Virus record (IMG/VR): IMGVR_UViG_3300032397_000005
Location: 1 to 64,000 of that record
Direction: 5' to 3' (one strand)
Source: a virus
DNA length: 64,000 nucleotides
Below the pieces are notes generated by a model. It was not told the DNA's origin. It searched no databases and saw only the letters and a program-made list of their open reading frames with translations. Each line of letters starts with the position of its first letter. The first letter of the stretch is position 1. The position numbers and the translations under genes were made by a program. Shown piece by piece: positions 17,420 through 63,945 of the stretch.

Positions 17420-17640
17420 TGATTGACAACGGATCCGTCGTTCAGAGGGTTCCAAATCGGGCCTTCGTGGGGATACCGGAGATTGCCCGGAAGAAGGGCG
17501 TTTCGCGCGTGGCCGTGCTCTACGCCATTCGGACCGGGAAGCTCCGGGCGCACCGGACGCCGGGCGGGCGTCAGTGGTTGATCCACGTGGACGACGCTCG
17601 CGCGTACATCTCCACCCCGGTCCGCGGGCGCGCCTCGTAA
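17416..17640 (+). CDS. Excisionase/MerR-like HTH DNA-binding protein
   Basis: IPEIARKKGVSRVAVLYAIRTGKLRA...GRQWLI. Confidence 0.8.
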   Translation: MMIDNGSVVQRVPNRAFVGIPEIARKKGVSRVAVLYAIRTGKLRAHRTPGGRQWLIHVDDARAYISTPVRGRAS

Positions 17641-17670: not shown

Positions 17671-17696
17671 TACTTTTAACCGGTGAGAAGAAGATG

Positions 17697-17753
17697 CACC
17701 TCCCCTCATTTTTCCTCTGGACAAATTGTTTCTATCTGGTAAGATGATACATG
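17697..17753 (+). promoter_or_regulatory. Repeated phage promoter, copy 1
   Basis: TGGACA 17718, TG-G-TAAGAT 17740, ATG 17751; 53 bp identical to 61419-61471. Confidence 0.85.
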
Positions 17754-19244
17754 AACACGGAAGTCCCAGAAAGGAGTCCGAAAATGAGGAACTGGAGCAC
17801 CTACCAAGAGGAGATCTTCACCGCGGTCGAGACGATCCACGCCGGCGGGCGGGACCTGGTGGTCTTGGCGCGCGCGGGGACCGGGAAGACCACGACCGTG
17901 ATCGAGGCGGTCATCCGCTACTGCCGGAGGAACGTCGGGCGGAAGGTCCTCACCTGCGCGTTTAACGTGAAGAACGCCAAGGAGCTGGACGCCCGTCTCC
18001 AGGAGGCCGGTCTGGACTGGAAGACCGCTTCCGCCAAGACGCTAAACGCCGTGGGTCTCGCCACGGTTCGGAAGGCGTGGGGGAAGGGCGTGCAGGTTGA
18101 CGCCAAGAAGGGCAAGGAGGTGGCGAAGGAGGCGTGTCGTCAGCTGGCGGCGGTTGCGCAGCGGGTCATCACTCCAGCGGGGAAGGTCCAGCGTCTGGCC
18201 ACGTTGGCCAAGATCACCCTGATGGACCCGGCGGACCTCGACTCGATTGAGGATCTGGCGCGGAGGTTCGCGGTGGGCGACGAGGACGCGGAGGTCGACG
18301 CGCTGGCCAGGCTCGCCGCCCGGGCCATGGAACTCTCCGCGGAGGACCGCTCTAGGGTCGACTTCGACGACCAACTCTGGTTTCCGCATCACTTCAGCCT
18401 CACGCCCTGGCAGCACGACCTGGTGGTGGTGGACGAGGCTCAGGACATGAACCCGTCCCAGCTGGCCCTGGCCCGGAAGTCCGTGAAGCGGGGCGGGCAG
18501 CTCATCGCCATCGGCGACGATCGCCAGGCCATCTACGGTTGGCGCGCGGCGGACAGCGGCTTCCTCTCCCGGATGGTCGAGGAGCTGAACGCCCGCACCC
18601 TCCTCCTCCCCCGCACCTACCGCTGCGGGACCTCCATCGTCACGGAGGCCAAGCGTCTTGTCCCGGACTACGAGGCGGACGTGAGCAACCCCCCGGGGAT
18701 CGTGAGGAGCACCTCCTCCGCGAAGATGCTGGTTGAGGTTGTCCGCGGGGACTTCATCCTCTGCCGCGCCAACGCTCCCCTCCTCCCCATCTGCCTCGAG
18801 CTGCTCCGGAATCGGATCCCGGCGGCGATTCAGGGGCGGGACATCCTGGGTCAGATCCTGGGGATGATTGACAAGTCACAGTGCGTCACCACGGCGGACC
18901 TGGCCGACTGGCTCCATGACTACGAGACGAGGGAGCGCGGGAAGTTGTTGGATCAGGACGCGGAGGAGGACCTCCTCCAGGCGCTGTCCGATCGCTGCGC
19001 CTGCCTTCGAGCCCTGATGCCGGAGGCGGACAGCACGGCGGAGCTCAAGGAGCGGTTGGACGAGCTGTTCTCGGACACGGACGACGCCTCCCGCGTGACC
19101 CTCTCCACGGCGCACCGCGCCAAGGGACTGGAGCGGGATCGCGTGTGGCTCCTCCGGGACTCCTTCCGGGAGGGCGGGCAGGAGAGCAACTGCCTGTACG
19201 TGGCAATTACCAGGGCGCGCAGTGAGCTGGTCTACGTTTCCTGA
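17751..19244 (+). CDS. Superfamily 1 UvrD/Rep-like helicase
   Basis: ARAGTGKTT, VDEAQD, GDDRQAIYGWRAAD, TYRC, STAHRAKGLE, YVAITRA; second SD-led ATG at 17784. Confidence 0.92.
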   Translation: MNTEVPERSPKMRNWSTYQEEIFTAVETIHAGGRDLVVLARAGTGKTTTVIEAVIRYCRRNVGRKVLTCAFNVKNAKELDARLQEAGLDWKTASAKTLNAVGLATVRKAWGKGVQVDAKKGKEVAKEACRQLAAVAQRVITPAGKVQRLATLAKITLMDPADLDSIEDLARRFAVGDEDAEVDALARLAARAMELSAEDRSRVDFDDQLWFPHHFSLTPWQHDLVVVDEAQDMNPSQLALARKSVKRGGQLIAIGDDRQAIYGWRAADSGFLSRMVEELNARTLLLPRTYRCGTSIVTEAKRLVPDYEADVSNPPGIVRSTSSAKMLVEVVRGDFILCRANAPLLPICLELLRNRIPAAIQGRDILGQILGMIDKSQCVTTADLADWLHDYETRERGKLLDQDAEEDLLQALSDRCACLRALMPEADSTAELKERLDELFSDTDDASRVTLSTAHRAKGLERDRVWLLRDSFREGGQESNCLYVAITRARSELVYVS

Positions 19245-19255
19245 TCACTTGGACG

Positions 19256-19289
19256 GGGGAGGAGGTGAAAATCCTCCTCCCCTCATTTT
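19256..19289 (+). terminator. Hairpin terminator overlapping promoter copy 2
   Basis: GGGGAGGAGG-TGAAAAT-CCTCCTCCCC followed by TCATTTT. Confidence 0.6.
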
Positions 19290-19330
19290 CTCCTGGACAT
19301 TTTGTTTCTACATGGTAATATGAGAGTATG
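19276..19330 (+). promoter_or_regulatory. Repeated phage promoter, copy 2
   Basis: TGGACA 19294, TAATAT 19316, ATG 19328. Confidence 0.8.
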
Positions 19331-19558
19331 AACAAAATAACGAACAAGAAGAAGCTCACCGACCACCAGCTCCGTTACCTTCGCCGCCTTCGTCGCGGGG
19401 AGCGGGACTTCCCGGCATCCGCCAAGATGCGGGACGCCCTCCACTCGCTTGGTCTCTTGACGCTGGAGCCGGGCGGGCCATCCACCCTTCGGGACGTCTT
19501 GACTCCCGCCGGGGAAGCGGCCGCGGACGCGGGGATGCCGGCGAGGGTGCCGTCATGA
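19328..19558 (+). CDS. Small hypothetical protein (possible winged helix), probably leaderless
   Basis: LT..QL..L...L...GLL....LTPAGEAA; ATG 6 nt after the -10 box with no SD. Confidence 0.65.
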   Translation: MNKITNKKKLTDHQLRYLRRLRRGERDFPASAKMRDALHSLGLLTLEPGGPSTLRDVLTPAGEAAADAGMPARVPS

Positions 19559-52856: not shown

Positions 52857-53717
52857 GTGACGTTCCTCATCGACGGCTCCGGCTTCGCCAAGGCGGCCTT
52901 CGTGCCCGGTCAGCAGAGTGCCCTCGCCCACCGCTTCCTCTCCCGGGTCTTCCAGCTGAACCTGCGCGGGCGCGGCCGGCCAATCGTCGTGGCCTGGGAC
53001 GCGCCGGACCACGTCTCCGGGCGCCGGGCCCGCTTCCCGGCCTACAAGGCAAACCGCGGTCTCCGCCCAGATCCGTTCGGGGGCGAGTACGCGGAGCAGG
53101 TTGCGGAGCTCCGGTCCCTCCTCCCGTCCCTGGGCGTCCACCAGGCGCTCAGTCCAGGTTGGGAGGCGGACGACGTCCTGGCCACCCTGGCTCGATCCGC
53201 GCCGGGGGAGGTGCTCGTCCTGACGCGGGACCGGGACATGATCCAGCTCGTTGATGAGCGGGTCTCCGTCCTGCTCAAGGTGGGCTCGAGGGAGCACCTC
53301 CTCGGGGAGCGGGGCGCGGAGAAGTTCCTCGGCTTCTCACCGCACGTCCACCGAGATTGGAAGGCGCTGGCGGGCGACTCCGGCGACGGCGTGCCCGGGA
53401 TGCCGGGGATCGGGGAGAAGACGGCCACGGCGCTCCTCGAGTTCCGCCCCACGCTCGTTCCGGACCTCCTCGGGGGCTCCGTCTACTACGGGCCGAACGG
53501 GCTCCAGGAACTCGAGCCGCGGGTCCGGACCGCCTTCCTGGGACTGCTCAAGCCGGAGGCGCGGGACCGACTCGAGCTGATGCGCTGGCTGGTCTCGCTT
53601 CACGAGGTCCCAATCCAAGTCCTGCGCGGGCGCCTGGACCTGGTGGAGGCGCGGACCTTCTTCTCCGCCTCGGGACTCCGGCTCCTTGGGTCTCGACTCC
53701 CGGAGTGGTCAAAATGA
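52857..53717 (+). CDS. 5'-3' exonuclease / flap endonuclease (PolA N-terminal-like)
   Basis: LIDGS, AWD, YKANR, EADDV.ATL, DRD..QL, L.GDSGDG.PG.PGIGEKTA. Confidence 0.92.
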   Translation: MTFLIDGSGFAKAAFVPGQQSALAHRFLSRVFQLNLRGRGRPIVVAWDAPDHVSGRRARFPAYKANRGLRPDPFGGEYAEQVAELRSLLPSLGVHQALSPGWEADDVLATLARSAPGEVLVLTRDRDMIQLVDERVSVLLKVGSREHLLGERGAEKFLGFSPHVHRDWKALAGDSGDGVPGMPGIGEKTATALLEFRPTLVPDLLGGSVYYGPNGLQELEPRVRTAFLGLLKPEARDRLELMRWLVSLHEVPIQVLRGRLDLVEARTFFSASGLRLLGSRLPEWSK

Positions 53718-54040
53718 GCAACGTCTGGTTCGTCTACCTGGTCCGCGCGGCGGACGGTTCCCTCCACTGCGGGATCTCCACGGACGTCGAGCGGCGGGTC
53801 CGGGAGCACAACGAGGGCTGGCGCGGCGCCAAGTGCCTCCGGGGGAAGCGGCCGGTTTCCCTGGCCTGGCGGAGCGCGGGGATGACCAAGTCGGCCGCCC
53901 TCCGACTCGAGGCGCGCCTCGAGCCACTTCACCCGCACTGGAGCGAGCGCCTGGCCGCGGAGTGGGCGGAGGTCAACGACCGATGGGGAGGAGTGGAGGA
54001 GTGGAGGAGTGGAGGAGTGGAGGAGGTTCGCCGCCGTTGA
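53714..54040 (+). CDS. GIY-YIG nuclease (UPF0213-like)
   Basis: WFVYLVR.ADGSL..GISTDV.RR..EHN.G..GAK..RG..PV.L. Confidence 0.8.
   Translation: MSNVWFVYLVRAADGSLHCGISTDVERRVREHNEGWRGAKCLRGKRPVSLAWRSAGMTKSAALRLEARLEPLHPHWSERLAAEWAEVNDRWGGVEEWRSGGVEEVRRR
53987..54025 (+). repeat. 8-bp tandem repeat, about 5 copies (GGAGGAGT)
   Basis: Seen directly. Confidence 0.9.
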
Positions 54041-54385: not shown

Positions 54386-54403
54386 CTGCCTACATGTAGG
54401 CAG
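54386..54403. promoter_or_regulatory. 18-bp perfect palindrome CTGCCTACATGTAGGCAG (putative operator)
   Basis: Related copies at 61912-61929 and 63247-63264. Confidence 0.55.
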
Positions 54404-54472: not shown

Positions 54473-54589
54473 CGGGACCCAAGTTGGGACCAACTTGTTA
54501 TCGTTCAGAAACGGGACCCAAGTTGGGACCAACTTGTTATCGTTCAGAAACGGGACCCAAGTTGGGACCAACTTGTTATCGTTCAGAAA
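54473..54589. repeat. 39-bp perfect tandem repeat, 3 copies, each with an internal inverted repeat
   Basis: Unit CGGGACCCAAGTTGGGACCAACTTGTTATCGTTCAGAAA; contains CAAGTTGG-GA-CCAACTTG. Confidence 0.95.
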
Positions 54590-54626
54590 CGGGGTTCAGA
54601 AATGGAGTCCCGGTTTAGGTCCAACG

Positions 54627-54845
54627 CTAGGCCAGTCTCTTGACGCGGGCGACGTGACCGGACGCGTTCCGGACGCTCCGGGAGTACGCCCTTGGGGACC
54701 ACCCCTCGGCGTCCACCTCCCGGACGACCCACATCGAGCCGACGCGGGTCCCGGGCAGCCTCCCGTCTCGGATTGCGTACAGGACGCAGACGCGGGTGAC
54801 GCCCCGCAGCGCGGCAACCTCGGACACCGACAGGAGCTTGTCCAA
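54627..54845 (-). CDS. Excisionase/MerR-like HTH protein (paralogue of 17416-17640)
   Basis: LSVSEVAALRGVTRVCVLYAIRDGRLPG.RVG..W.V; TTG start; has its own promoter. Confidence 0.75.
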   Translation of the reverse strand: MDKLLSVSEVAALRGVTRVCVLYAIRDGRLPGTRVGSMWVVREVDAEGWSPRAYSRSVRNASGHVARVKRLA

Positions 54846-54901: not shown

Positions 54902-55056
54902 TCACTTTTCACTCCCAATCGGTAACGAACTGGCAACGCTCCCGGGCTTCGAGTCGGCGGAGGTCCGCCTCGGGTCTGAGGTGGTCGACGTTGGCGCGGA
55001 CGGATCGGTCCGCGTTCGCCCGGAGTGAGGCGTCCGTGGACTGGATCCTGCGGACG

Positions 55057-55755
55057 ATGGAGGACCTGGTGGTCACGCTCCCCTCCGGTGAGAGGGTGGA
55101 GGCGGCCTTCCGGAGGCCGTCGACGTCCGGACCCACCTCGCTGGCCGCCTCCGTCCGGTCCTGGCGCGGGGCCACGGTCTCCCTGGGGGACGGTTTCATG
55201 ACGCTCACCCTGGGTCGCGCGATCCTCCGCGTGAGGACGCGTCCGGTCTCGATCCAACGTCCCCAAGTGCCGGCGTACTTCCGGACGGGTTCCATCCACG
55301 TTGTCCTCGGGGATCCCGGGTGGATCCTCCTGCGCGTTGAGGGGCGTACGGTGGCGATCCTGCGGGCGGATCTGGCGCCGTGGGCGCCGGTTGTGCGCTT
55401 GGTGGTCCCGGATCCCGGGGTTGAGGCGCTGCTGAATGCGTCCGCCGGTCCGGCGCGTTTCCTCCCGGCGATTAGAACTGGTACCGGGGTGCTACTGTCC
55501 GGCGTTCGCTGGGTGAACGCGGGCGGGGCGGTGGTCCCGGTGGACTTCCTGCGGGCGCTCCCGGTTGGGACGGTCGTCTCGGTGGCTGAAAACGTCCTGC
55601 GGGCACCCGGGTTTGGGGCGGTAACCGGAACGACGGACTTCCTGGCGTGCGTGGAGGAGGAGACCGGGGTGCTCCCGCCCTCCCGGACGTCCTACTGGAC
55701 TGATCTTCTCCTCTTCTTATTTCCCTGGACATATTCTTTCTACGTGGTAAGATGA
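55057..55755 (+). CDS. Hypothetical protein (stops inside promoter copy 3)
   Basis: Long ORF; start uncertain. Confidence 0.45.
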   Translation: MEDLVVTLPSGERVEAAFRRPSTSGPTSLAASVRSWRGATVSLGDGFMTLTLGRAILRVRTRPVSIQRPQVPAYFRTGSIHVVLGDPGWILLRVEGRTVAILRADLAPWAPVVRLVVPDPGVEALLNASAGPARFLPAIRTGTGVLLSGVRWVNAGGAVVPVDFLRALPVGTVVSVAENVLRAPGFGAVTGTTDFLACVEEETGVLPPSRTSYWTDLLLFLFPWTYSFYVVR

Positions 55756-55762
55756 AAGTATG
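55715..55762 (+). promoter_or_regulatory. Repeated phage promoter, copy 3
   Basis: TGGACA 55726, TAAGAT 55748, ATG 55760. Confidence 0.85.
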
Positions 55763-56404
55763 ACAAACAACGCGGTGATTGAGACCACCTTCCAGCTCCT
55801 GAGCGTTCGCGACGTCCGCCCGGTGGACTGGTTCTCCGGTGAGCGGGTTGCAATCCCGGATGGTGAACTCCCGGAGTGCGCGCGCTGTGGGCGGCGCCAC
55901 GCCGTGGTCTGGACCCTCCGGGAGCTCCCATCCGGCGGGACGGTGACGGTTGGCTCCGGTTGCGGGCCCAAGCTCCTGGCGGAGGGGCTCCTCCCGGGTG
56001 TGGACCTCCACGCGGTTGCGGCGGCCAAGAAGGTCGCGGCGGCGGAGGTCAGGGCGATCCGGCGCGTGGGCGCGGAGGTGCGGGCGCGGGAGCTGGCGGA
56101 GCTGGCCCGGGCGGCGGATCTGGCGGCGGGTGACCCACCGGCGCCGGTCTGGACCGCGGACGTGTACGGGCGGGCGGAGTTCGTGACCGTGACCGTCGGC
56201 GCCGTGGTCCGCTGCGCCGTCGCCCGCCAGCTGGACCGCGTGGCGCTCGAGCGGATGGCCGCCTCCCAGTGGCGGGACGAGGTCCGGATGGCCGCGGTCG
56301 TCGCCGCCGGCTGCCCGCGCGGCGCGCAGCACGCGGTGGTCCGCCTGGCGAACGCGGAGACCGAGGGGACCCTCCGGGACGCCGCGGCCGCCCTCCTCGG
56401 GTAG
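55760..56404 (+). CDS. Hypothetical Zn-binding protein, probably leaderless
   Basis: CARCGRRH...VGSGC. Confidence 0.7.
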   Translation: MTNNAVIETTFQLLSVRDVRPVDWFSGERVAIPDGELPECARCGRRHAVVWTLRELPSGGTVTVGSGCGPKLLAEGLLPGVDLHAVAAAKKVAAAEVRAIRRVGAEVRARELAELARAADLAAGDPPAPVWTADVYGRAEFVTVTVGAVVRCAVARQLDRVALERMAASQWRDEVRMAAVVAAGCPRGAQHAVVRLANAETEGTLRDAAAALLG

Positions 56405-56408
56405 TGAG

Positions 56409-56499
56409 AAAAAAAACGCACGCGGCTCGTCTTTTCCCTGTACATATTCTTTCTGCATGGTAAGATGAGAGTATGAGCAAGACGACGGAGAGCAAGATG
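56409..56499 (+). promoter_or_regulatory. Repeated promoter/leader, copy 4
   Basis: TGTACA 56439, TAAGAT 56461, ATGAGCAAGACGACGGAGAGCAAGATG 56473-56499. Confidence 0.88.
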
Positions 56500-56676
56500 G
56501 CAAAGCGGAACGGACGCGAGGTGATGGAGCGGCTGGACGCGGAGCGGACGGACCGGATGCTCCGGGAGCTGGCCTCGGACCTGGCGGACCTCGTCGCCTC
56601 CGGTGACCTGACGGAGGCGGAGGCGAACGAGTGGATGACCCGGAAGCAGGACCAGTGGAACGGGGGTGACCGGTGA
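56473..56676 (+). CDS. Hypothetical protein (MSKTTESKM leader)
   Basis: Second start at 56497. Confidence 0.7.
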   Translation: MSKTTESKMAKRNGREVMERLDAERTDRMLRELASDLADLVASGDLTEAEANEWMTRKQDQWNGGDR

Positions 56677-56912
56677 CCGCTAAGAAGGACCCGCGCGCCG
56701 CAATCCGCGCCGCGCTCGAGGTGGCGATGGCGATCGCGGATGCCATCCGGGAGCTGGGGACGGTCCCGTCGGGCGTGCTCTACGCCCAGGTGGCGTCGGT
56801 CCTGACGCTGGAGGACTTCCTCTGCGTCGTCCGGAACCTGAAGGAGGCGGGCGTCGTCGCGGAGGCGAACCACGTCCTCCGCTGGACCGGACCCGCGTGG
56901 GGTGGCAAGTGA
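56673..56912 (+). CDS. Hypothetical winged-helix-like protein
   Basis: AIRELG.VPSG.LYA...L...G.V....H.L.W.GP. Confidence 0.7.
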   Translation: MTAKKDPRAAIRAALEVAMAIADAIRELGTVPSGVLYAQVASVLTLEDFLCVVRNLKEAGVVAEANHVLRWTGPAWGGK

Positions 56913-57298
56913 CCGCCCGGGTCTCCTGCGCGTCGGACGTCGCCGCGGTCTCCCGCCCGGTCTTCCGTCGCTGGCGGTGGGAGCAGGAGGCGTTCGTGGT
57001 CCTCCTCCTCAACGCGAAGCACGACGTCATCGGGCGCCCGGAGGTCTCGGCGGTCGGGACGGTCACCTCCGTCACGGTCCACCCGCGGGACGTCTTCCGG
57101 GCGGCGGTCCGCCGGAACGCGGCCGCGGTCATCGTCGCGCACTGCCACCCGAGCGGGGACGTGGCGCCCTCCGCGGACGACCTCCTCCTGACCCGGCGCC
57201 TCCGGGAGGCCGGGGAGCTTCTCGGGATCCCGCTCCTGGACCACGTCATCGTCGGCCGGGACGCCCTCCGGTCCCTGGCGGAGACCGGGCAGCTGTGA
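56909..57298 (+). CDS. RadC/UPF0758 JAB-domain protein
   Basis: E.F.VLLLNAK, HPRDVF..A, AHCHPSGD..PS.DD...T..L, LLDHVIVG. Confidence 0.9.
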   Translation: MTARVSCASDVAAVSRPVFRRWRWEQEAFVVLLLNAKHDVIGRPEVSAVGTVTSVTVHPRDVFRAAVRRNAAAVIVAHCHPSGDVAPSADDLLLTRRLREAGELLGIPLLDHVIVGRDALRSLAETGQL

Positions 57299-57386
57299 AA
57301 AAACGCACGCGCCCTCATTTTTCCCTGGACAGATTCTTTCTGCATGGTAAGATGAGAGTATGAGCAAGACGACGGAGAGCAAGATG
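57299..57386 (+). promoter_or_regulatory. Repeated promoter/leader, copy 5
   Basis: TGGACA 57326, TAAGAT 57348, ATG 57360 and 57384. Confidence 0.88.
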
Positions 57387-57539
57387 ACGAAGACGACGAA
57401 GACGGTCCACGTCCTGTCCCTCGGCGGGGAGCCCATCCACTTCGAGACGGCGGCCGCGGCGCGCCGGTTCCTGGACGCCCTCCCGGCCGGGCGACGCTGC
57501 GAGTGCGCCTACCTCGGGACGGTCGAGGTGCCCCGATGA
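57360..57539 (+). CDS. 59-aa hypothetical protein (not in the ORF track)
   Basis: MSKTTESKMTKTTKTVHVLSLGGEPIHF...EVPR*; ATGA overlap with the next ORF. Confidence 0.7.
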   Translation: MSKTTESKMTKTTKTVHVLSLGGEPIHFETAAAARRFLDALPAGRRCECAYLGTVEVPR

Positions 57540-57754
57540 CGCGCCCGGGCCGCTTCGAGGACACGACGATCTACATCTACTTCCGGCAGTTCCGCGTCCG
57601 CTGCGCGGTCACCGGCCGCGTGGAGCACGGGTGCGCGGCGGCCGGGCCGGCCAAGAAGATGCTTCGGGAGCTGGGCTGGGACTACCTCCCGCGCCAGGGC
57701 TGGGTGAGCCCGGAGGGTCTCGAGACGCTGAGGAAGGAGAGCACCAATGGCTAG
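57536..57754 (+). CDS. Hypothetical protein
   Basis: GAGGTG RBS; translationally coupled. Confidence 0.6.
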   Translation: MTRPGRFEDTTIYIYFRQFRVRCAVTGRVEHGCAAAGPAKKMLRELGWDYLPRQGWVSPEGLETLRKESTNG

Positions 57755-58007
57755 GTTCAACGAGGGCGCGATGGCGGAGCTGCTGGCGGAGGTCCTCGGG
57801 ACGCCGGAGGCGGCGGAGCTGGTGGAGGAGATCCTCGGCGCGCAGGCGGCGGTCTCCTCCACCTCCTTCCGGGAGGCGGGCGTCCTGACCAACAACGCGG
57901 GCCTGGTCGTTCGCGTCGGCCGCCGGGAGTTCCAGCTCACGGTGGTCGAGAGCACGCCCTCCTACCTCCGGGAGGACGACGGGGAGGATGACGATGACGA
58001 TGAGTAG
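57747..58007 (+). CDS. Hypothetical protein with an acidic tail
   Basis: TSFREAGVLTNNAGLVV....EFQLTVV motif; AGGAG RBS. Confidence 0.7.
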   Translation: MARFNEGAMAELLAEVLGTPEAAELVEEILGAQAAVSSTSFREAGVLTNNAGLVVRVGRREFQLTVVESTPSYLREDDGEDDDDDE

Positions 58008-58272
58008 GCGCAGGCGGTTCCGCCCGGAGGGTCTCCTCCGCGTCCGCGTCCTCCAGGGCGCGCGCGGCTTCATCCAGAAGTTCCTCGAGCACGAGCTTTG
58101 GTACGGGGGAGCGGAGGAGCAGGGCTTCGCGGACGGCTCGACGGTCTGGCAGGTCTACTTCTGGACGCGGCTCGAGGCGGCGGACGTTCAGGAGCGGATC
58201 TGGGCGCAGAACGGCGGCGGCTGGTGTGAGGTCGTCGAGGTGGACCCGGAGACCGGGGAGGTGGCGCGGTGA
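58000..58272 (+). CDS. Hypothetical protein (paralogue of 60634-60900)
   Basis: Shared G(F/Y)A(D/E)GST.WQVY...QE.IWA.NGGGWCEV.E. Confidence 0.75.
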   Translation: MSRRRRFRPEGLLRVRVLQGARGFIQKFLEHELWYGGAEEQGFADGSTVWQVYFWTRLEAADVQERIWAQNGGGWCEVVEVDPETGEVAR

Positions 58273-58511
58273 GAGGTCGCGACCGGATCCCCTTCGAGCG
58301 GAGCGCTGACCTCCGTCTCCTCCTCCCCGGGGGCTGGGAGGCGTTCGCGCTCCCGCGGACCGAGTTGGCGGCGCTCGAGGAGACCTTCGGAGCCGGGGCG
58401 GGTCCGTGGATAGGTCAACAGGCGGAGGCATTCGGAGGCGGTGAAAAAAACGCACTGAGTTCATCTTTTCCTATGGACAGATTCTTTCTGTATGGTAAGA
58501 TGAGAGTATGA
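58269..58511 (+). CDS. Hypothetical protein reading into promoter copy 6
   Basis: GAGGTG RBS; GTGA overlap; C-terminus encoded by the repeat. Confidence 0.45.
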   Translation: MRGRDRIPFERSADLRLLLPGGWEAFALPRTELAALEETFGAGAGPWIGQQAEAFGGGEKNALSSSFPMDRFFLYGKMRV

Positions 58512-58534
58512 ACAAGACGACGGAGAGCAAGATG
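58444..58534 (+). promoter_or_regulatory. Repeated promoter/leader, copy 6
   Basis: TGGACA 58474, TAAGAT 58496, ATG 58508 and 58532. Confidence 0.88.
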
Positions 58535-58714
58535 AACCGGATCGAGATCGTCTCCTCCCGCAGCGCCAACACCGTCTCCATCGTTGACGGCCTGACGGTC
58601 GTCAACATCATCCGGTTCCCCTCCGGGAATTTCTTCAAGACGTCCACCAAGTGCGCGTCCGTCGAGCGGGCGCGCGCGCTGGCCGCCTCCCTGGCGGCGG
58701 AGGAGGTGCTCTAG
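58508..58714 (+). CDS. Hypothetical protein (MNKTTESKM leader)
   Basis: Follows the repeat. Confidence 0.7.
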   Translation: MNKTTESKMNRIEIVSSRSANTVSIVDGLTVVNIIRFPSGNFFKTSTKCASVERARALAASLAAEEVL

Positions 58715-58947
58715 TGGGGACCGCGCGCGTGAACTTCACCCTCCCCTCCTACCCGGGCGGGGAGGCGCGGCTGGACGAGATCGCGCACCGGCTGGTGGAG
58801 GACCTCCCGGCGCACATGCGGCGCGGCGCGGTCCTGGTGGTGGCTCAGGACTGGGACGGGCGGACGATCTGCTGGACCTCCCTCCGCTGCGGGGAGAGCC
58901 GGCCCAACCACCTGGCGTGGGCGCCCGCGTCCATGCCCTGGGAGTAG
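58714..58947 (+). CDS. Hypothetical protein
   Basis: GGAGGTG RBS; TAGTG coupling. Confidence 0.6.
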   Translation: MGTARVNFTLPSYPGGEARLDEIAHRLVEDLPAHMRRGAVLVVAQDWDGRTICWTSLRCGESRPNHLAWAPASMPWE

Positions 58948-58956
58948 GAGAGGACG

Positions 58957-59268
58957 ATGAAGGTCTCCCTGGAGTGCACGAGCCTGGCCGCCCTGGCGGC
59001 CGCCCTGACGGACCGGATGCTGAAGCACGCGGACTACGCGGCGGAGATGTGCGCGGACGGCGACGAGCCCGGGGACGCGGCGCGCTGGATCGCCTTCGCG
59101 CGGCTCCTCCGCCGCGGCGGGTCGGTGGAGGTCAACGCCTCCCTCGAGGCGGCGCTCGACTGCCTCATCGTCGAGCAGGAGACCCTCCCGCCCTGTCCCC
59201 GCTGCGGCGGGCAGCGGGACCGGGACCCGGGCGGGGAGGTCTACTGCACCGAGTGTCACCCGGGGTAG
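58957..59268 (+). CDS. Hypothetical protein with a C-terminal Zn ribbon
   Basis: CPRC...CTECH; GGAGAGG RBS. Confidence 0.65.
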   Translation: MKVSLECTSLAALAAALTDRMLKHADYAAEMCADGDEPGDAARWIAFARLLRRGGSVEVNASLEAALDCLIVEQETLPPCPRCGGQRDRDPGGEVYCTECHPG

Positions 59269-59356
59269 AAAAGCGCACGCGGCTCATCTTTTCTCTGGAC
59301 ATATTCTTTCTGCATGGTAAGATGAGAGTATGAGCAAGACGACGGAGAGCAAGATG
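59269..59356 (+). promoter_or_regulatory. Repeated promoter/leader, copy 7
   Basis: TGGACA 59296, TAAGAT 59318, ATG 59330 and 59354. Confidence 0.88.
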
Positions 59357-59524
59357 AAGACCGCCACCGAGTACGGGATCCGCTGGTTCGAGTTCGACCG
59401 GAGCGACCGCCGGGTCCAGCGGGAGAAGTTCTTCAAGACGGAGAAGGCGCGCGCAGCCTTCGCGGCGCGGCTGGAGACCAAGGACAACTTCGCGGGTGAC
59501 TTCACCTGGAGCGAGGAGGCGTAG
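59330..59524 (+). CDS. Hypothetical protein (MSKTTESKM leader)
   Basis: YGIRW.EFD...R.Q.EKFFKT..AR.AF. Confidence 0.7.
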   Translation: MSKTTESKMKTATEYGIRWFEFDRSDRRVQREKFFKTEKARAAFAARLETKDNFAGDFTWSEEA

Positions 59525-59812
59525 ATGGCCAGCAAACGGAAGAAGGCGGCGCCGGAGTACCTCCCGCCGGCGGAGCGGATCCTGGCGGCGAAGTTCCTGG
59601 CGACCTCGAACCTGGGGCAGCCGGAGCCGCGGAGCGCGGACCCGTTGGCGAGCAGCTGGTGGACGGGCGCCCGTCCACGGTCCGTGGGCGGAGATGTGCG
59701 TCTCCTGCCACGCGCGCGTTGGGCTCGGTTTTGGGCTCGGGCGGGGTCAACTCTACCAGTTGGCTCCGGACGGAACCTGGGTGAAGGTGCGGCGAACGTG
59801 AGGGATCCCTAG
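59525..59812 (+). pseudogene. Probable chimeric/frameshifted gene
   Basis: N-terminus is paralogous to 60890-61171; the downstream DGR / VHGPWAEMCVSCH...GLGFGLGRGQLY motif lies in other frames. Confidence 0.5.
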
Positions 59813-59831
59813 GTGTTGGGAGGGCGCGAAT

Positions 59832-59936
59832 AAAAAGCGCATGAGCTTATCTTTTTCCCCTGGACATATTGTTTCTATCTGGTAAGATGATAATATGAGA
59901 ACCGAGAGAGAAACCCAGACCAAGGAGACGAAGATG
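59832..59936 (+). promoter_or_regulatory. Repeated promoter/leader, copy 8
   Basis: TGGACA 59861, TAAGAT 59883, ATG 59895 and 59934. Confidence 0.85.
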
Positions 59937-60302
59937 AACTCCCAGACCGTGACCTTCCCCGTCCGTTCCATCCCACTGACCATCAGCGCCAGCGCGGCGG
60001 CGGCGCTCCTGAACGTCTCCACGGACTTCGAGCTGGTGGTGAGGTTCCTGGGCTACGGCTCGGACTACTCCCGCCTGATGACGGGTGCCGAGAAGGACGT
60101 CGTTCGCTACCTGGCGGACGGCTTCGGGACCCTCACCGCGGCGGACGCGGTGGAGACGGACGAGCACCAGGACCTCCTCCGCGACTGGAGCCACGTCCGC
60201 GACTCCTCGCCGGAGGCGGTGGCGAACATGGCGGCGGCCATCCGCGCCTTCTTCGCGGCGCACACGGTCCAGGATGAGGAGACCTTCCTGAGCGGTTACT
60301 AG
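59895..60302 (+). CDS. Hypothetical protein
   Basis: Follows the repeat; followed by a hairpin at 60310-60336. Confidence 0.7.
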   Translation: MRTERETQTKETKMNSQTVTFPVRSIPLTISASAAAALLNVSTDFELVVRFLGYGSDYSRLMTGAEKDVVRYLADGFGTLTAADAVETDEHQDLLRDWSHVRDSSPEAVANMAAAIRAFFAAHTVQDEETFLSGY

Positions 60303-60353
60303 AGACGTCGACCCTGGGGGAGCTCCTCCCGGGGTCTTGGGAGGAGGTGCGCG

Positions 60354-60572
60354 ATGCTGATTGAGGCGACGGATCCGCGGGAGGCGGCGCTGGGGATCCT
60401 CCGTCGGGACTTGACGGGGGACGCGCGGGGGGCGCTGGCGTACCTCCTGAACAACGCCCTCTGCCCGCTGGTCTGCGATCTCTCGTTCGACGACGCGGCG
60501 CTCAACCTGGGGTACGTCCGGGACGCGGTCATGCAGCTCCGGGCGATGGTTCTGGAGATCGTTTCTGGGTGA
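60354..60572 (+). CDS. Hypothetical protein
   Basis: GGAGGAGGTG RBS. Confidence 0.65.
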   Translation: MLIEATDPREAALGILRRDLTGDARGALAYLLNNALCPLVCDLSFDDAALNLGYVRDAVMQLRAMVLEIVSG

Positions 60573-60636
60573 TAAAAACGCCTCCCCCCACTTTTCCCCT
60601 GGACATATTGTTTTTATCTGGTAAGATGATAATATG
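60573..60636 (+). promoter_or_regulatory. Repeated promoter, copy 9
   Basis: TGGACA 60600, TAAGAT 60622, ATG 60634. Confidence 0.85.
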
Positions 60637-60900
60637 AGAACAAAGAAAGCAACCAAGAAGCTCCTCAGGATTCGGATGGGTCAGGCGTTCCGCGGGTTCC
60701 TGCTGGGCGTTTGCCAGGAACTCCGGCTCGAGGTGGAGTCCACGGGGTACGCGGAGGGGTCGACGGCGTGGCAGGTCTACGTGCGGACGGAGATCCCGGC
60801 GGACGTGATTCAGGAGACGATCTGGGCGCGCAACGGCGGCGGGTGGTGCGAGGTCAATGAGATCAACGGTCAGGACAACGGAGGGAGAGATGTCAAGTAA
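60634..60900 (+). CDS. Hypothetical protein (paralogue of 58000-58272), probably leaderless
   Basis: Shared motif with 58000-58272. Confidence 0.75.
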   Translation: MRTKKATKKLLRIRMGQAFRGFLLGVCQELRLEVESTGYAEGSTAWQVYVRTEIPADVIQETIWARNGGGWCEVNEINGQDNGGRDVK

Positions 60901-61171
60901 GAAGAGAGCGAAGCAGCCGGTCTTTATCCCGGAGGCGGAGCGGGACCTGGCGGCAAAGTGGTTGGCCACCTCGAACCTGGGGCAGCCGGAGGCAGAGACG
61001 GCGGACCCAGAGGCAATTTTGCGCGCATGGGAGGCGTGCGTCCGGGCGCACGGGGACGAGGGGATCGACGTGATGCCGGAGTTCAGGGGTTGGAAGCGGG
61101 ACATTGCGGCGGGTGACGCCTTCTGCGCGGAGGAGTGGGGGAAGTTCAAGGCTCAGAAGGAGGTGCGTTGA
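60890..61171 (+). CDS. Hypothetical protein
   Basis: AER.LAAK.LATSNLGQPE is shared with the 59525 ORF. Confidence 0.7.
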   Translation: MSSKKRAKQPVFIPEAERDLAAKWLATSNLGQPEAETADPEAILRAWEACVRAHGDEGIDVMPEFRGWKRDIAAGDAFCAEEWGKFKAQKEVR

Positions 61172-61411
61172 TGGATCACGCGGCGGTTGTGAGGGCGGCG
61201 ATGATGTGGTGCGCGGAGCTCCTTGAGGCGGCGCTCGAGGGCCTGGTGACCCGGAGGCGAGGGAGGTCTTTCTGGCGGACGCTACGGGTCTGCGGGACCG
61301 CCAGGAGGTGGTCTTTGTGACGTACCTCATTCGGCACCAGATCTGCGAGCTCCGTGCCCGGGCGGATGTGATGGGGAAGAAGGTTTGACGGGTACCTCCT
61401 GATACGTGAAG

Positions 61412-61500
61412 AAAACGTCACCTCCCCTCATTTTTCCTCTGGACAAATTGTTTCTATCTGGTAAGATGATAATATGAGAACCACGAAGGAGACGCAGATG
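61412..61500 (+). promoter_or_regulatory. Repeated promoter/leader, copy 10
   Basis: TGGACA 61440, TAAGAT 61462, ATG 61474 and 61498. Confidence 0.88.
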
Positions 61501-61692
61501 ACGAAGACGATGAAGGCGGTTCGGAAGTTCACGGCGGGCCTGGCGGTTGGGCGCTCTGACCTCAACCGGAACGGTTACGCCTGGATGGCGCGGAACGTGG
61601 CGACGCTCATCCGCCTCACCAAGGACGAGCCCAACTGGCTCCGCGGTTACCGCGCGGCGCTCGAGGACGCGCAGGACGGGGAGGTGCTTTGA
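61474..61692 (+). CDS. Hypothetical protein
   Basis: Follows the repeat. Confidence 0.7.
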   Translation: MRTTKETQMTKTMKAVRKFTAGLAVGRSDLNRNGYAWMARNVATLIRLTKDEPNWLRGYRAALEDAQDGEVL

Positions 61693-61910
61693 TGCGGAAG
61701 AAGGGCGTGCGTGGCAGCGTGGTCTCCGCGCTGCGGCTCCTGCGGGACGCGCGGCTCCTCCTCCGCGGGGAGGTGGAGGCGGGTGAGTGGGGGGACGCGG
61801 ACGCAATCGAGCTCTCCCAGCGCCTCGCGGAGGTGACCGCGGAGACGCTCACGCTGCGGCGGGAGCTGGCGTCCTGGTTCCTATTTGTCCGTCCGGCGGA
61901 CATTGACTGA
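61692..61910 (+). CDS. Hypothetical protein
   Basis: GGAGGTG RBS; TGATG coupling. Confidence 0.6.
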   Translation: MRKKGVRGSVVSALRLLRDARLLLRGEVEAGEWGDADAIELSQRLAEVTAETLTLRRELASWFLFVRPADID

Positions 61911-61953
61911 TGCGCCTATATGTAGGCGCCTGACACTTTGGAGGAGGTGAAGG

Positions 61954-62208
61954 ATGAGTGAAGTCATGTTTAAACGCGGGGACCCGGTGGAGGTCATGAT
62001 CGGCGGCGCGTGGAGGGCGGGTCGAGTTGCTTACGCGAGGATGCTTGGTCCGGAGTACAGGAGGGTCGCCGCCTACTCCGTCGTGCTGCATGATCTCGAG
62101 CTGAAGCCGGGTTATATGGGGACAAACATCGTGTCCGTGTGCTGCTCAGGCGTGATGGTGTCCGTGGAGTTCGTTCGCGCGGTGACGATTGACGGAGGGT
62201 TGAAATGA
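61954..62208 (+). CDS. Hypothetical SH3/Tudor-like protein
   Basis: FKRGD.VEV...G.W..G.V...YSV; strong RBS. Confidence 0.6.
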   Translation: MSEVMFKRGDPVEVMIGGAWRAGRVAYARMLGPEYRRVAAYSVVLHDLELKPGYMGTNIVSVCCSGVMVSVEFVRAVTIDGGLK

Positions 62209-63197
62209 GAAGAATGGTGCTTGCGCTGCTCCTCCTCCCCTCACTGAACGCGGTGGGGGATCCGCTGGTTCTTCCGCGGGACTTCCGGGTACGCTGCTTC
62301 CCGAGGAACCTGAGGTTCAAGCCGGATTGCCTGGTGCCATGCGAGCGTGCAGGGCGGGAGGGACGGGCACTGGACGAGGTCCTCCCCCTGGATGCCCTCC
62401 TGACCGCGGGAACCGGGTCCCACGCCACGGAGACCTTCGCGGCGGTGTGTTCATCTAGGTGGCAGGAGCTCATCCCTCAGGAGGCGCTGGCGCGTCTGAG
62501 TCGATGCAACCCGCGGCGGGACGTGATCCAGTACGCCCTCGAGCTCCGCCTGACGCACCTCCGGAAGACGCGGGGTAAGGTCCCAAACTACGTCGCCCCG
62601 GATCTCGACGGGACGCCACCGGTGGTCAAGGGCTCGATGGCGGCAAGTAAGCGGGCTTACATCAACAGACACCTCGCGCTCCTGGCCGGGGTCCTAGACT
62701 GTCCCCTCATCTCGGACGCGGAGGGCGTGCGGACCGTTGCCCTGGAGCTCCGGGACCGCGCGAGGGAGAAGTTAGTGGCGATTGAGCGGGAGGCGGCGGA
62801 GGAGGTGGAACGCGCGACCAGGCGGGCGGAGTCGATCGCGCGGATCCGGGCGGAGCTGGCTCCCCTCCTCCGGGGGGCGGTGGGTTGCCCGCGGTGCTCG
62901 GTCGACGCCGTCTGGGAGGCGCATGAGTACGCGGAGGCGATCTGCGGAGCGATCCAGAGTAGAGCGGAGGCGGTTGCGGAGCTCGCCAGGCTCCGGCGCT
63001 ACGGCGCTCGCCACGGCGTGGTGGACCTCTCGGACCTCAAGGACCAGTCAGACGCCATCCGGGAGGCGGAAGACAGCATCCGCGGGAATCGGAGCGAGTT
63101 CCTCAGGGTGACCAAGCGGGTGTTCAGTCCGGGTTGCTGCCGGAACCTCCCGAATGTTGCGGAGCGGCTCGAGGCGGCGTCCAACAAGGTCAGGTAG
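62205..63197 (+). CDS. Putative exported Cys-containing protein
   Basis: MRRMVLALLLLPSLNA signal peptide; several Cys; coiled coil. Confidence 0.6.
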   Translation: MRRMVLALLLLPSLNAVGDPLVLPRDFRVRCFPRNLRFKPDCLVPCERAGREGRALDEVLPLDALLTAGTGSHATETFAAVCSSRWQELIPQEALARLSRCNPRRDVIQYALELRLTHLRKTRGKVPNYVAPDLDGTPPVVKGSMAASKRAYINRHLALLAGVLDCPLISDAEGVRTVALELRDRAREKLVAIEREAAEEVERATRRAESIARIRAELAPLLRGAVGCPRCSVDAVWEAHEYAEAICGAIQSRAEAVAELARLRRYGARHGVVDLSDLKDQSDAIREAEDSIRGNRSEFLRVTKRVFSPGCCRNLPNVAERLEAASNKVR

Positions 63198-63945
63198 GCG
63201 CGAGCTGCTTGACGCGCGGCGCGCGCGGTTCCGCGGGGATTGGTTCTTGCTTATATGTAGGCAACTGGAGTGACGCGTCAATCACCTTCCCACCCTCCTC
63301 CACCGGTTGCGTGATGCGGCGGAGGACGGCGCCAACCGTTCCCTGGAGGCGTTTCTGGGGATCCGCTAGGTATGCCTGGAGACCGGTCACCTCCTTTGAT
63401 AGGTGAACCTGGAGCTCGGAGATGGACATCGAGCGGATGTCCACGTGCCCGTGGATCTGGAGCTCCCGGGCGGCGCGCTTGATGACCCCCAGCTCCTGCC
63501 CGACCTTGATGATCTGCTCCAGGATGCTGGACCGGGCCTTGATCGCGGTGGTGAGTGCGGCAAACTGCTTCGACCCGCGGAAGATCTCCGCCATGTCCTG
63601 CAGTTCCTTACAGCAGAGCATCTGCTGCTCCCGGTACTCCGCAAACAGCAGCGTGGAGTCCGCGGAGTCCCACATGCGCCGGTATTCGTCTCGGCTCGTG
63701 CGCTCCACGCTCATCAGGCGCTGCAGGCTCCAGCCGGTTTCCTGGAGGATCTGGTCACGAGACCACATCAAGGAAATACAGGCTCTGTACTGAGTGATGT
63801 CGCGTCTATCTCGGCGGATCTCCTGTGATTCCGTTAGGTCTTGGATACCAAACTTGGCTAGGTTCCTAGTTCTGGCCTTGGCGCCTGCGCACCCGGACGC
63901 GACGTCCGAGAGTTCGAGTTCCTTGGCGTTTGAGTGCTGTGACAT
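63190..63945 (-). CDS. Possible terminase small subunit-like protein
   Basis: HTH-like N-terminal part, helical core, ...GQELGVI...ELQIHGHVDIRSMS..EL tail; GGAGGAGG RBS; TGC-TAAGAT -10 box at 63964-63972. Confidence 0.4.
   Translation of the reverse strand: MSQHSNAKELELSDVASGCAGAKARTRNLAKFGIQDLTESQEIRRDRRDITQYRACISLMWSRDQILQETGWSLQRLMSVERTSRDEYRRMWDSADSTLLFAEYREQQMLCCKELQDMAEIFRGSKQFAALTTAIKARSSILEQIIKVGQELGVIKRAARELQIHGHVDIRSMSISELQVHLSKEVTGLQAYLADPQKRLQGTVGAVLRRITQPVEEGGKVIDASLQLPTYKQEPIPAEPRAPRVKQLAPT

What the first reader, a model, noticed from the sequence alone, without database searches (positions are those of the whole stretch)
55715..61910. Array of small-gene cassettes, each opened by the same promoter-leader repeat
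Seen: eight copies (-35 box at 55726, 56439, 57326, 58474, 59296, 59861, 60600, 61440) of roughly AAAA(C/G)GC...TCAT(C/T)TTTTCC(C/T)TGGACA-N16-TAAGAT-N6-ATG divide the region into units of about 0.5-1.15 kb with 1-5 small ORFs. Copies 4-7 share about 90 bp, extending into the first nine codons. At 56404, 57298, 59268 and 60572 the repeat starts at or within a few bases of the upstream stop codon. At 55755 and 58511 the upstream ORF only stops inside the repeat, as if cut there. Paralogous genes recur in different cassettes. Known: promoter-containing repeats shuffle early-gene modules in T4-type phages (PeSL elements). Inference: this is an expandable, recombination-shuffled cassette platform for early host-takeover or anti-defence genes, in which the recombination substrate also supplies the promoter, RBS and start codon.
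Basis: partly seen in the sequence, partly recalled or inferred. Interest (0 to 1): 0.8.

Follow-up and report, generated by a model that had tools for sequence, protein, structure and literature searches.

The report
Promoter-repeat gene cassette array in phage
An uncultured 105-kb high-GC phage carries eight near-identical promoter-plus-start-codon repeats, each heading a short block of unknown small genes, and related phages show these blocks being gained, lost and swapped at the repeats, much like the PeSL cassettes of T4-type phages.

Summary
Eight copies lie at the stated coordinates and two more at 17718 and 19294. All ten are on the + strand, against 0.4 expected by chance.

Each copy has four parts:
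- an A-run, a GC segment and a T-tract, which is the loop, 3' arm and tail of a terminator hairpin that is intact in only some copies;
- -35 TGGACA, a 16-bp spacer, and an extended -10 TGGTAAGAT;
- an ATG exactly at the predicted +1, so the mRNA is leaderless;
- usually a 5-14 codon leader rich in K, T and E that holds a Shine-Dalgarno (SD) sequence and a second ATG, always in frame.

- Copy number at the array site is 1, 4 or 8.
- Genes are replaced immediately after the shared leader.
- A whole cassette is inserted between two repeats.
- One gene carries two different promoter-leader subtypes, with the crossover at the -35 box.
- About half of roughly 24 junctions fall in repeats that cover about 14% of the region. 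The rest are microhomology deletions or gene-boundary swaps.

Cassettes 1-5 are compositionally foreign (GC 0.70 against 0.65). They carry the promoter subtype of the 70%-GC relatives.

This works like T4-type PeSLs but is not homologous to them. Early timing and anti-defence function remain untested, and 19 of 20 cassette ORFs have no family match. The same stretch was flagged in other windows of this scan.

The parts
55700..55762 (+). Repeat copy P1 (A subtype). It is truncated on the left, with no A-run. The leaderless ATG at 55760 is the only plausible start of gene 55760-56404.
56410..56499 (+). Repeat copy P2 (A subtype, -35 TGTACA). Leader MSKTTESK, then a second ATG at 56497.
57297..57386 (+). 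Repeat copy P3 (A subtype). An imperfect hairpin overlaps the end of the RadC-like gene.
58446..58534 (+). Repeat copy P4 (A subtype). Leader MNKTTESK. The orthologous gene in L014 has a different leader, MTSAENKK.
59267..59356 (+). Repeat copy P5 (A subtype).
59833..59936 (+). Repeat copy P6 (B subtype, 13-codon leader). It marks the boundary between the GC-rich A block and the native-like B block. Relatives have the A subtype before the same gene.
60571..60678 (+). Repeat copy P7 (B subtype, 14-codon leader).
61411..61500 (+). Repeat copy P8 (B subtype). It heads gene 61474-61692, the only cassette gene found at the array site of relative G001.
17689..17786 (+). Repeat copy outside the array (B subtype; ~95% identical to P8 over 64 bp, measured on the near-identical contig L009). 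It heads the UvrD-like helicase 17751-19244.
19267..19330 (+). Repeat copy outside the array, with an intact 11-bp terminator hairpin just upstream. The gene after it is replaced in relative L010.
55760..57298 (+). Cassettes 1-2. Genes 55760-56404 (214 aa), 56473-56676, 56673-56912, and 56897-57298 (RadC-like JAB).
57360..59268 (+). Cassettes 3-4. Genes 57360, 57536, 57747, 57988, the doubtful ORF 58269-58511, and 58508, 58714, 58957. None has a family match.
59330..61910 (+). Cassettes 5-8. Genes 59330; 59525 (chimera left by a 329-bp deletion); 59895; 60354; 60634; 60890; 61172-61388 (frameshifted here, intact in L024 and L025); 61474; 61692.
54630..54845 (-). Small HTH_17 DNA-binding gene with its own TGGACG-N17-TAAGAT promoter at 54901-54873 on the minus strand. 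A paralogue of 17416-17640. One such gene adjoins each promoter-repeat locus in all three genomes. Candidate regulator.

Best explanation
The repeats are composite terminator-remnant / promoter / translation-start modules. Each has a sigma-70(sigma-A)-type promoter (-35 TGGACA, 16-bp spacer, extended -10 TGGTAAGAT) positioned so that transcription should begin on the A of an ATG. This gives a leaderless mRNA. Its first 5-14 codons form a T-poor, K/T/E-rich leader that usually holds an SD and a second in-frame ATG.

Ten such modules drive short operons of small ORFan genes, probably from the host RNA polymerase early in infection. The modules are the only long stretches of identity between otherwise unrelated cassettes. 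They therefore serve as substrates for general homologous recombination and gene conversion, within and between co-infecting relatives. This adds, removes, replaces and re-heads cassettes while always leaving the captured gene with a promoter and a start codon.

Basis of each step:
- Shown by sequence: the anatomy, the copy number, the variation among relatives, junctions in the repeats, and concerted evolution.
- Inferred: promoter activity, the +1 position, use of the first ATG, early timing, and the recombination pathway.
For: Promoter:
- 10 co-oriented copies against 0.4 expected, with 9 of 12 consensus matches plus a TG extension.
- In relative G002 the copies on the minus strand precede minus-strand genes.
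- The geometry, with the ATG 6 nt after the -10, is kept in three genomes whose helicases are 72-84% identical.

Translated leader:
- All 11 leader classes that have a second SD-led ATG are in frame and free of stops.
- GC by codon position is 0.34, 0.49 and 0.80 over 113 leader codons, the same third-position GC bias as the genome's genes, with only 7 T in 339 nt.
- Three copies have no alternative start.

Terminator part:
- An intact hairpin with an A-rich loop, followed by a T-tract, lies just before the -35 at P19294, at L010-1598, and at the P6 orthologues in L018, L020, L022 and L023.
- Other copies keep only the loop, the 3' arm and the T-tract.

Shuffling:
- Gene n27 replaces 56473-56676 exactly after the shared leader in L015 and L019, which come from two samples. 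In L013 the same gene is a separate cassette between two repeats.
- A 60354-like gene replaces 58269-58511 up to the start of P4 in L014 and L015.
- L018 and L023 are identical upstream. They then diverge from the -35 box for about 400 bp and rejoin.
- An isolated 28-bp core lies inside an ORF in L013.
- About 13 of 24 junctions lie in or at repeats that cover about 14% of the region (binomial 6e-6).
- Array size is 1, 4 or 8 units.

Concerted evolution:
- Copies within a genome share genome-specific variants: TGG, TGC or TGA before TAAGAT.
- They are more alike (0.79-0.80) than orthologous copies between genomes (0.58-0.77).

Import:
- Cassettes 1-5 have GC 0.699 and GC3 0.95, against 0.648 and 0.82 for the genome (Mann-Whitney p = 7e-8).
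- This matches the ~70%-GC relatives that carry the A subtype or a close variant of it.
Against: - There are no transcript, protein or infection data, and the host is unknown.
- About half of the junctions are not in repeats. They include the microhomology deletions 58039|58315 and the one at 59644, the 61322|61511 deletion, and gene-boundary swaps.
- The junction count was made by hand, and alignment necessarily ends where shared sequence ends.
- All relatives are short-read metagenome assemblies, in which 60-95-bp repeats can create chimeras. Several arrangements do recur in independent samples.
- In L010, L021 and G001 the helicase copy has GTG or ATG-TGA instead of a clean leaderless ATG. 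The first start is therefore not universal.
- Part of the spacer (CTTTC) is conserved across diverged genomes, which homogenisation alone does not explain.
Confidence: 0.7

Rival explanations
1. The repeats are only strong, selectively maintained early promoters. Rearrangements arise by illegitimate recombination anywhere. Junctions appear at repeat edges because only variants that keep an intact promoter and gene survive.
For: Clear microhomology deletions and gene-boundary replacements occur in the same array. A diverged promoter of the same class with an unrelated spacer exists at L019-5438, so the spacer is not needed for the promoter class.
Against: The L018/L023 patch starts at the -35 box and ends inside a homologous gene, which is typical of homologous exchange. 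Gene n27 is found in two contexts and is always joined through the leader. P17718 and P8, 44 kb apart, are about 95% identical over 64 bp (via the near-identical contig L009), while their orthologues in relatives are 63-77% identical.
Confidence: 0.15
2. The sequence identity, including the spacer and the T-tract, is imposed mainly by a trans-acting phage regulator that binds every copy, for example the adjacent HTH_17 proteins. On this view the repeats are a regulon of operators and recombination is incidental.
For: An HTH_17 gene adjoins both promoter loci in all three genomes. CTTTC in the spacer and the TTTTCC tract are kept across genomes. The variants are genome-specific.
Against: No dyad or direct-repeat operator is evident in the core. 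Identity extends well into the translated leader and the hairpin arm, where a regulator of initiation need not bind. This reading does not explain the cassette mosaics. It is not exclusive of the main explanation.
Confidence: 0.1
3. The apparent shuffling is an artefact of metagenome assembly across 60-95-bp repeats.
For: Several contigs begin or end in a repeat (L010, L021, L022, L025). This shows that assemblers break there.
Against: The n27 replacement is seen in L015 and L019. The 60354-like replacement is seen in L014 and L015. The A-type P6 is seen in L020 and L022. Each pair comes from different samples. Novel genes and non-repeat junctions cannot be chimeras of the window genome. Contigs L017, L018, L024 and L025, at 98-99.8% identity, confirm the window's cassette order.
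Confidence: 0.04
4. This is an integron-like, site-specific cassette system in which a recombinase acts on the repeat.
For: A truncated serine recombinase gene (19555-20277) follows one repeat copy.
Against: Junctions are spread over about 100 bp (A-run, -35 box, leader end) rather than falling at one crossover point. No recombinase lies in or next to the array. An apparent recombinase in L022 proved to be a wrong-frame artefact over a weak SprT-like gene. Every cassette has its own promoter.
Confidence: 0.01

Closest known systems
PeSL (promoter-early stem-loop) cassettes of T4-type phages (Arbiol et al. 2010, PMC2839356; Comeau et al. 2014, PMC4122927)
   Same: Both are conserved units of about 100 bp. 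Each has an AT-rich upstream part, a strong sigma-70-type promoter, a stem-loop or terminator, and the start codon of the downstream gene. Both are clustered in ORFan-rich hyperplastic regions. In both, indels and replacements between close relatives have endpoints in the repeats.
   Different: There is no sequence homology, and the phage is not T4-like: it is 65% GC, has PolB, and has nearly all genes on one strand. The start codon sits at +1 (leaderless), with a translated leader and a second in-frame SD-led ATG. The hairpin lies upstream of the -35 and is degenerate in most copies. Mini-circles and promoter or terminator activity have not been shown.
T-even internal-protein (IP) loci, called PeSL-like analogues in PMC2839356 (citing Repoila et al. 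1994)
   Same: Both are highly polymorphic loci of small accessory genes flanked by conserved repeats based on early promoters (PMC2839356). From my own knowledge, the T-even IPs also share a conserved N-terminal peptide, as the cassette proteins here do.
   Different: The T4 IP N-terminal peptide is a capsid-targeting sequence removed by the prohead protease (my own knowledge). Nothing here indicates targeting or cleavage. The leaders vary in sequence and length.
Morons of lambdoid phages
   Same: Both are accessory genes that carry their own promoter and, in some copies here, a terminator.
   Different: Morons are not bounded by a shared repeat that acts as the recombination substrate. PMC2839356 draws the same contrast.
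Integron gene-cassette arrays
   Same: Both are tandem, expandable arrays of small accessory genes.
   Different: Here there is no integrase, attI or attC. Each unit has its own promoter, and the junctions are not site-specific.

Membership tests
PeSL-type regulatory cassettes | Sigma-70-like -35 and -10 promoter in each repeat | tested here: met
   TGGACA-N16-TAAGAT with a TG extension. Seven of the eight array copies were flagged by the consensus scan, against 0.3 expected; the TGTACA copy was missed. Promoter activity itself was not assayed.
PeSL-type regulatory cassettes | Stem-loop that can act as a terminator or attenuator | tested here: inconclusive
   The hairpin is intact at P19294, at L010-1598 and at the P6 orthologues in L018, L020, L022 and L023. 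It is imperfect at P3. In the other window copies only the loop, the 3' arm and the T-tract remain.
PeSL-type regulatory cassettes | AT-rich segment upstream, and an SD plus start codon at the 3' end | tested here: met
   An A-run and a T-tract in a 65-70% GC genome, with a GC dip at every copy. The leader holds GGAG followed by an ATG. In addition there is a leaderless ATG.
PeSL-type regulatory cassettes | Clustering in ORFan-rich variable regions, with indel endpoints in the repeats between close relatives | tested here: met
   19 of 20 ORFs have no Pfam or PHROG match. Junctions in repeats are shown.
PeSL-type regulatory cassettes | Excised mini-circles formed by repeat-to-repeat recombination | not testable with these tools
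   This needs inverse PCR or long reads.
PeSL-type regulatory cassettes | Homology to the T4-type elements, or residence in a T4-like phage | tested here: not met
   blastn against 50,697 phage records found nothing. The promoter consensus and the genome type differ. This is an analogue, not a homologue.
Integron | Adjacent integrase, a single crossover site (attC) and a common promoter | tested here: not met
   No recombinase lies in or beside the array. Junctions are dispersed over the repeat.
CRISPR array | Short repeats regularly spaced by short non-coding spacers | tested here: not met
   Spacing is 565-1148 bp and is filled with coding ORFs.

The most novel reading that the evidence does not exclude
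The module is more than a PeSL analogue. It may be a portable expression adaptor whose translated leader gives unrelated captured proteins a common N-terminal peptide with a function of its own, for example targeting as in the T4 internal proteins, or a translation or stability signal. Its conserved spacer and T-tract may be the operator of the HTH_17 proteins that adjoin every repeat locus, so that the whole shuffled array is one switchable regulon.
Probability: 0.15. Interest if true: 0.75.

Novelty: new variant of a known kind. Interest (0 to 1): 0.55.

Why it matters
Repeat-mediated cassette shuffling, with the promoter and start codon carried on the recombination substrate, has been described for T4-type phages. 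Here it turns up in an unrelated, uncultured high-GC phage lineage, which suggests a convergent and general way for large phages to turn over accessory genes.

The natural variants from several metagenomes give an unusually direct population-level view of the process. Crossover points can be seen at the hairpin loop, at the -35 box and at the leader end. One whole block appears to have been imported from a relative of different GC content.

The leaderless ATG combined with an in-frame SD-led ATG is a compact dual-start design that could be tested directly. The array also marks about 20 ORFans as candidates for early host-interaction functions.

Tried and rejected
- blastn of the array against 50,697 phage records found no match.
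- A flanking 330-aa anchor protein searched in IMG/VR found no relatives.
- The promoter pattern and the conserved 516-aa structural-side protein, searched in 185,579 prokaryote genomes, found nothing. No host clue or prophage relative emerged.
- Rfam found nothing on either strand of 53.5-63 kb.
- Pfam and PHROGs on 20 cassette ORFs and the flanks matched only the RadC-like JAB protein.
- ESM Atlas gave only 'hypothetical viral' clusters for 55760-56404 and nothing for 59934-60299.
- My ORF clustering first suggested a serine recombinase inside the array of L022. Re-reading the frames and running Pfam showed a wrong-frame artefact over a weak SprT-like ORF. The integron-like idea was dropped.
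- The single-base A/B 'hybrid' core in L025 is as well explained by a point mutation and is not counted as evidence.
- No phage RNA polymerase or sigma factor was found among the large ORFs tested. The temporal class of the promoters remains an inference.
- Structure prediction was not run. The alignments would be shallow, and one protein's fold would not change the verdict.


Full report
CONTEXT. The window is the first 64 kb of a 105,443-bp IMG/VR virus record that CheckV rates as 100% complete. Nearly all genes are on the + strand. Recognisable genes include a family-B DNA polymerase, a 5'-3' exonuclease, a class II ribonucleotide reductase, DnaB-like and UvrD-like helicases, and a portal protein. 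Overall GC is 0.648. No similar record exists in the phage collection, and no relative was found in prokaryote genomes. The host is therefore unknown.

OBSERVATION. The repeat is real. TGGACA-N13-TGGTAAGAT with up to 3 mismatches occurs ten times, always on the + strand, against 0.42 expected. There are no further copies in the rest of the genome. Eight copies lie at the stated positions. Two more flank a UvrD-like helicase at 17718 and 19294.
- The spacings are as stated.
- Stop codons abut the A-run at four copies.
- Two ORFs end inside a repeat.
- Paralogues recur in different cassettes.
- The ~90-bp identity reaching nine codons holds, for the copies at 56439, 57326, 58474 and 59296.

ANATOMY. 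An alignment of all copies shows the following parts in order.
- An A-run, a GC-rich segment and a T-tract come first. In some copies these are the loop, 3' arm and tail of a good terminator hairpin: P19294, L010-1598, and the P6 orthologues in L018, L020, L022 and L023. P3 has an imperfect hairpin. In most window copies the 5' arm is absent and the upstream gene's stop codon sits at the A-run.
- Next come -35 TGGACA, a 16-bp spacer containing ATT(C/G)TTTCT, and an extended -10 TGGTAAGAT.
- Six nucleotides after the -10 (five in one copy) lies an ATG, exactly at the canonical +1.
- A leader of 5-14 codons follows, and in most copies it holds GGAG and a second ATG.
- Two subtypes exist. Subtype A covers P1-P5. 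Subtype B covers P6-P8 and P17718.

IS THE LEADER TRANSLATED? Three lines of evidence say it probably is.
- All eleven distinct leader classes with a second SD-led ATG keep it in frame with no stop. Their lengths are 15, 18, 24, 33, 36, 39 and 42 nt.
- Over 113 leader codons, GC by codon position is 0.34, 0.49 and 0.80. This is the same third-position GC bias as the genome's genes. Only 7 of 339 bases are T.
- Three window copies (55760, 19328, and effectively 60634) have no good alternative start.
The exception is the helicase copy in L010, L021 and G001, which has GTG or ATG-TGA at +1. I therefore rate use of the leaderless start as likely but not universal. I had reached it independently and re-tested it here.

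RELATIVES. A scan of metagenome contigs for the promoter pattern returned 13 contigs from seven samples. These are 79-99.8% identical to the window where they align. A search with the helicase found two complete relatives. G001 is 105.9 kb, with 84% helicase identity. G002 is 101.8 kb, has direct terminal repeats, and shows 72% helicase identity. I fetched both in full. A profile of the repeat finds 10 copies in the window genome, 3 in G001 and 6 in G002.

At the array site, between the 5'-3' exonuclease side and a conserved minus-strand gene plus a 516-aa protein, the three genomes differ:
- G001 has one unit, heading the orthologue of 61474-61692.
- G002 has four units, two on each strand, and each points at genes of its own orientation.
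- The window has eight.
Apart from the 61474-61692 orthologue in G001 and two partial matches in G002, no cassette gene has a detectable homologue in the complete relatives. The array is therefore expandable and hyperplastic.

JUNCTIONS IN OR AT THE REPEATS.
- In L015 and L019, which come from different samples, the sequence is identical to the window through the shared leader and then diverges right after the second ATG. An unrelated 74-aa gene (n27) replaces 56473-56676. Homology resumes at the next gene's start.
- In L013, n27 has its own repeat and sits as an extra cassette between the RadC-like gene and P3. This is the arrangement expected if repeat-to-repeat recombination inserts or deletes a cassette.
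- In L014 and L015, a homologue of 60354-60572 replaces the doubtful ORF 58269-58511 up to the start of P4. P4's leader also differs there, although the downstream gene is the same.
- Upstream of P6, four different contents are found: the window's deletion remnant, the L025 form, gene n28 in L018 and L023, and n28 plus a SprT-like ORF in L022. All of them join at the A-run of the repeat.
- L018 and L023 are identical upstream of P6. From the -35 hexamer L023 switches to an L022-like A-subtype core, leader and 5' gene half. It returns to the window sequence inside the gene. This is a homologous exchange tract with one end in the repeat.
- L013 carries an isolated 28-bp B core inside an ORF.
- In L010, the genes after the P19294 orthologue are different.
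- In L019, a 70-aa gene lies between the P1 orthologue and the 55760 orthologue. The window's P1 is fused directly to that gene.

JUNCTIONS NOT IN THE REPEATS.
- L017 has a deletion 58039|58315 at a TCTCCTCC microhomology. It also has a lower-GC insert that replaces most of gene 55760 and ends just before the -35 of P2.
- The window has a 329-bp deletion at 59644 between GCGGACCCG repeats, which makes ORF 59525-59812 a chimera.
- L025 has a deletion 61322|61511 that removes P8 and fuses two ORFs in frame.
- The window has a frameshift in 61172-61388.
- L013 shows gene-boundary replacements.

By my hand count, about 13 of 24 junctions lie in or within 7 nt of the repeats, which cover about 14% of the region. 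The binomial probability is 6e-6, or 5e-3 on a conservative count. This count is approximate, and alignments necessarily end where shared sequence ends. Even so, the enrichment and the individual mosaics point the same way.

CONCERTED EVOLUTION AND IMPORT. All copies in a genome share genome-specific variants. The window has TGGTAAGAT, G001 has (T/A)GCTAAGAT with TTTC(C/T) in the spacer, and G002 has TGATAAGAT with ATACTTTCTA. Mean identity within a genome is 0.79-0.80. Orthologous copies between genomes are 0.58-0.77 identical. P17718 and P8, 44 kb apart, are about 95% identical over 64 bp (measured on the 99.6%-identical contig L009).

The A-subtype part of the array (55760-59812) has GC 0.699 and mean GC3 0.95. 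The rest of the genome has 0.648 and 0.82 (p = 7e-8). The B-subtype part has GC 0.647. The ~70%-GC relatives L010, L019 and L021 carry the A subtype, and G001 carries a close variant of its spacer. The simplest reading is that cassettes 1-5 were imported, promoters included, from such a relative. The ends of the imported block lie in P1, which is truncated on its left and overlaps the 3' end of native ORF 54991-55755, and at the A-run of P6.

MECHANISM. Taken together, the repeats are strong host-type promoters with built-in starts. Their shared ~60-100 bp acts as portable homology for general recombination and gene conversion. Crossover points are spread over the unit: the hairpin loop, the -35 box and the leader end. 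This argues against site-specific recombination, and no recombinase lies in the array. The hit I first saw in L022 was a frame artefact.

This is how PeSLs of T4-type phages are described: units of about 100 bp with an AT-rich part, a sigma-70 promoter, a stem-loop, an SD and a start codon, clustered among ORFans, with indels between close relatives and mini-circles (PMC2839356, PMC4122927). The same authors note analogous elements at the T-even internal-protein loci. The present element is an analogue, not a homologue. It differs in the leaderless +1 ATG, the translated leader with a second in-frame start, and the upstream, often degenerate hairpin.

WHAT REMAINS OPEN.
- Promoter activity, the transcription start, early timing and gene functions are all inferences.
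- Only 56897-57298 has a family match, a RadC-like JAB domain (E = 8e-38).
- The conservation of CTTTC in the spacer and of the TTTTCC tract across diverged genomes is not explained by homogenisation alone. An HTH_17 gene lies next to both repeat loci in all three genomes. A regulator that binds the units is therefore a live possibility.
- All relatives are short-read assemblies. Recurrence of several arrangements in independent samples argues against chimeras, but long reads are needed.

Noticed in passing
window 54473-54593: A perfect 3.1-copy tandem repeat of 39 bp. Each unit holds the 8-bp inverted repeat CAAGTTGG/CCAACTTG. It lies in a gene-poor stretch just downstream of the minus-strand HTH_17 gene and is conserved in L017. 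It may be a set of binding sites or an origin.
   Followed up: partly
window 17416-17640 (+) and 54630-54845 (-); G001 and G002 equivalents: Two paralogous small HTH_17 (excisionase/MerR-like) genes. One adjoins each promoter-repeat locus, and this holds in all three complete genomes. They are candidate regulators of the repeats.
   Followed up: partly
window 54388-54401, 61914-61927, 63249-63262: The 14-bp palindrome GCCTA(C/T)ATGTAGGC, allowing one mismatch, occurs only three times in the 105-kb genome. All three bracket the array region: upstream of the HTH gene, 4 nt after the last cassette gene, and after gene 62205-63197. G001 has ACCTACATGTAGGG upstream of its HTH gene.
   Followed up: partly
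window 59644; 61172-61388; 58269-58511: Signs of decay specific to the window genome. A 329-bp microhomology deletion truncates a 60857-like gene. A frameshift splits a 73-aa gene that is intact in L024 and L025. The ORF that runs into P4 has weak coding statistics.
   Followed up: yes
window 55760-59812: GC is 0.70 and GC3 0.95, against 0.648 and 0.82 for the rest of the genome. This block looks imported from a ~70%-GC relative.
   Followed up: yes
window 19555-20277: A serine recombinase of only 240 aa, with a Resolvase domain and the start of a Recombinase domain. It may be truncated. It lies after the P19294 cassette.
   Followed up: no
window 53715-54030: The ORF starting MSNVWFVYLVRAADGSLHCG looks GIY-YIG-like by eye only and was not tested. 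It is followed by a 4.9-copy tandem repeat of GGAGGAGT at 53987-54025.
   Followed up: no
window 20319 and 46900 (+), 63972 (-): Three further extended -10-like sites, TGGTAAGGT or TGCTAAGAT, lie in intergenic positions outside the repeat family. They may be other promoters of the same class.
   Followed up: no
L013 1185-1212: An isolated B-subtype promoter core, 28 bp with one mismatch, lacks the T-tract and the ATG. It is embedded in an extended n27 ORF and looks like a recombination scar.
   Followed up: partly
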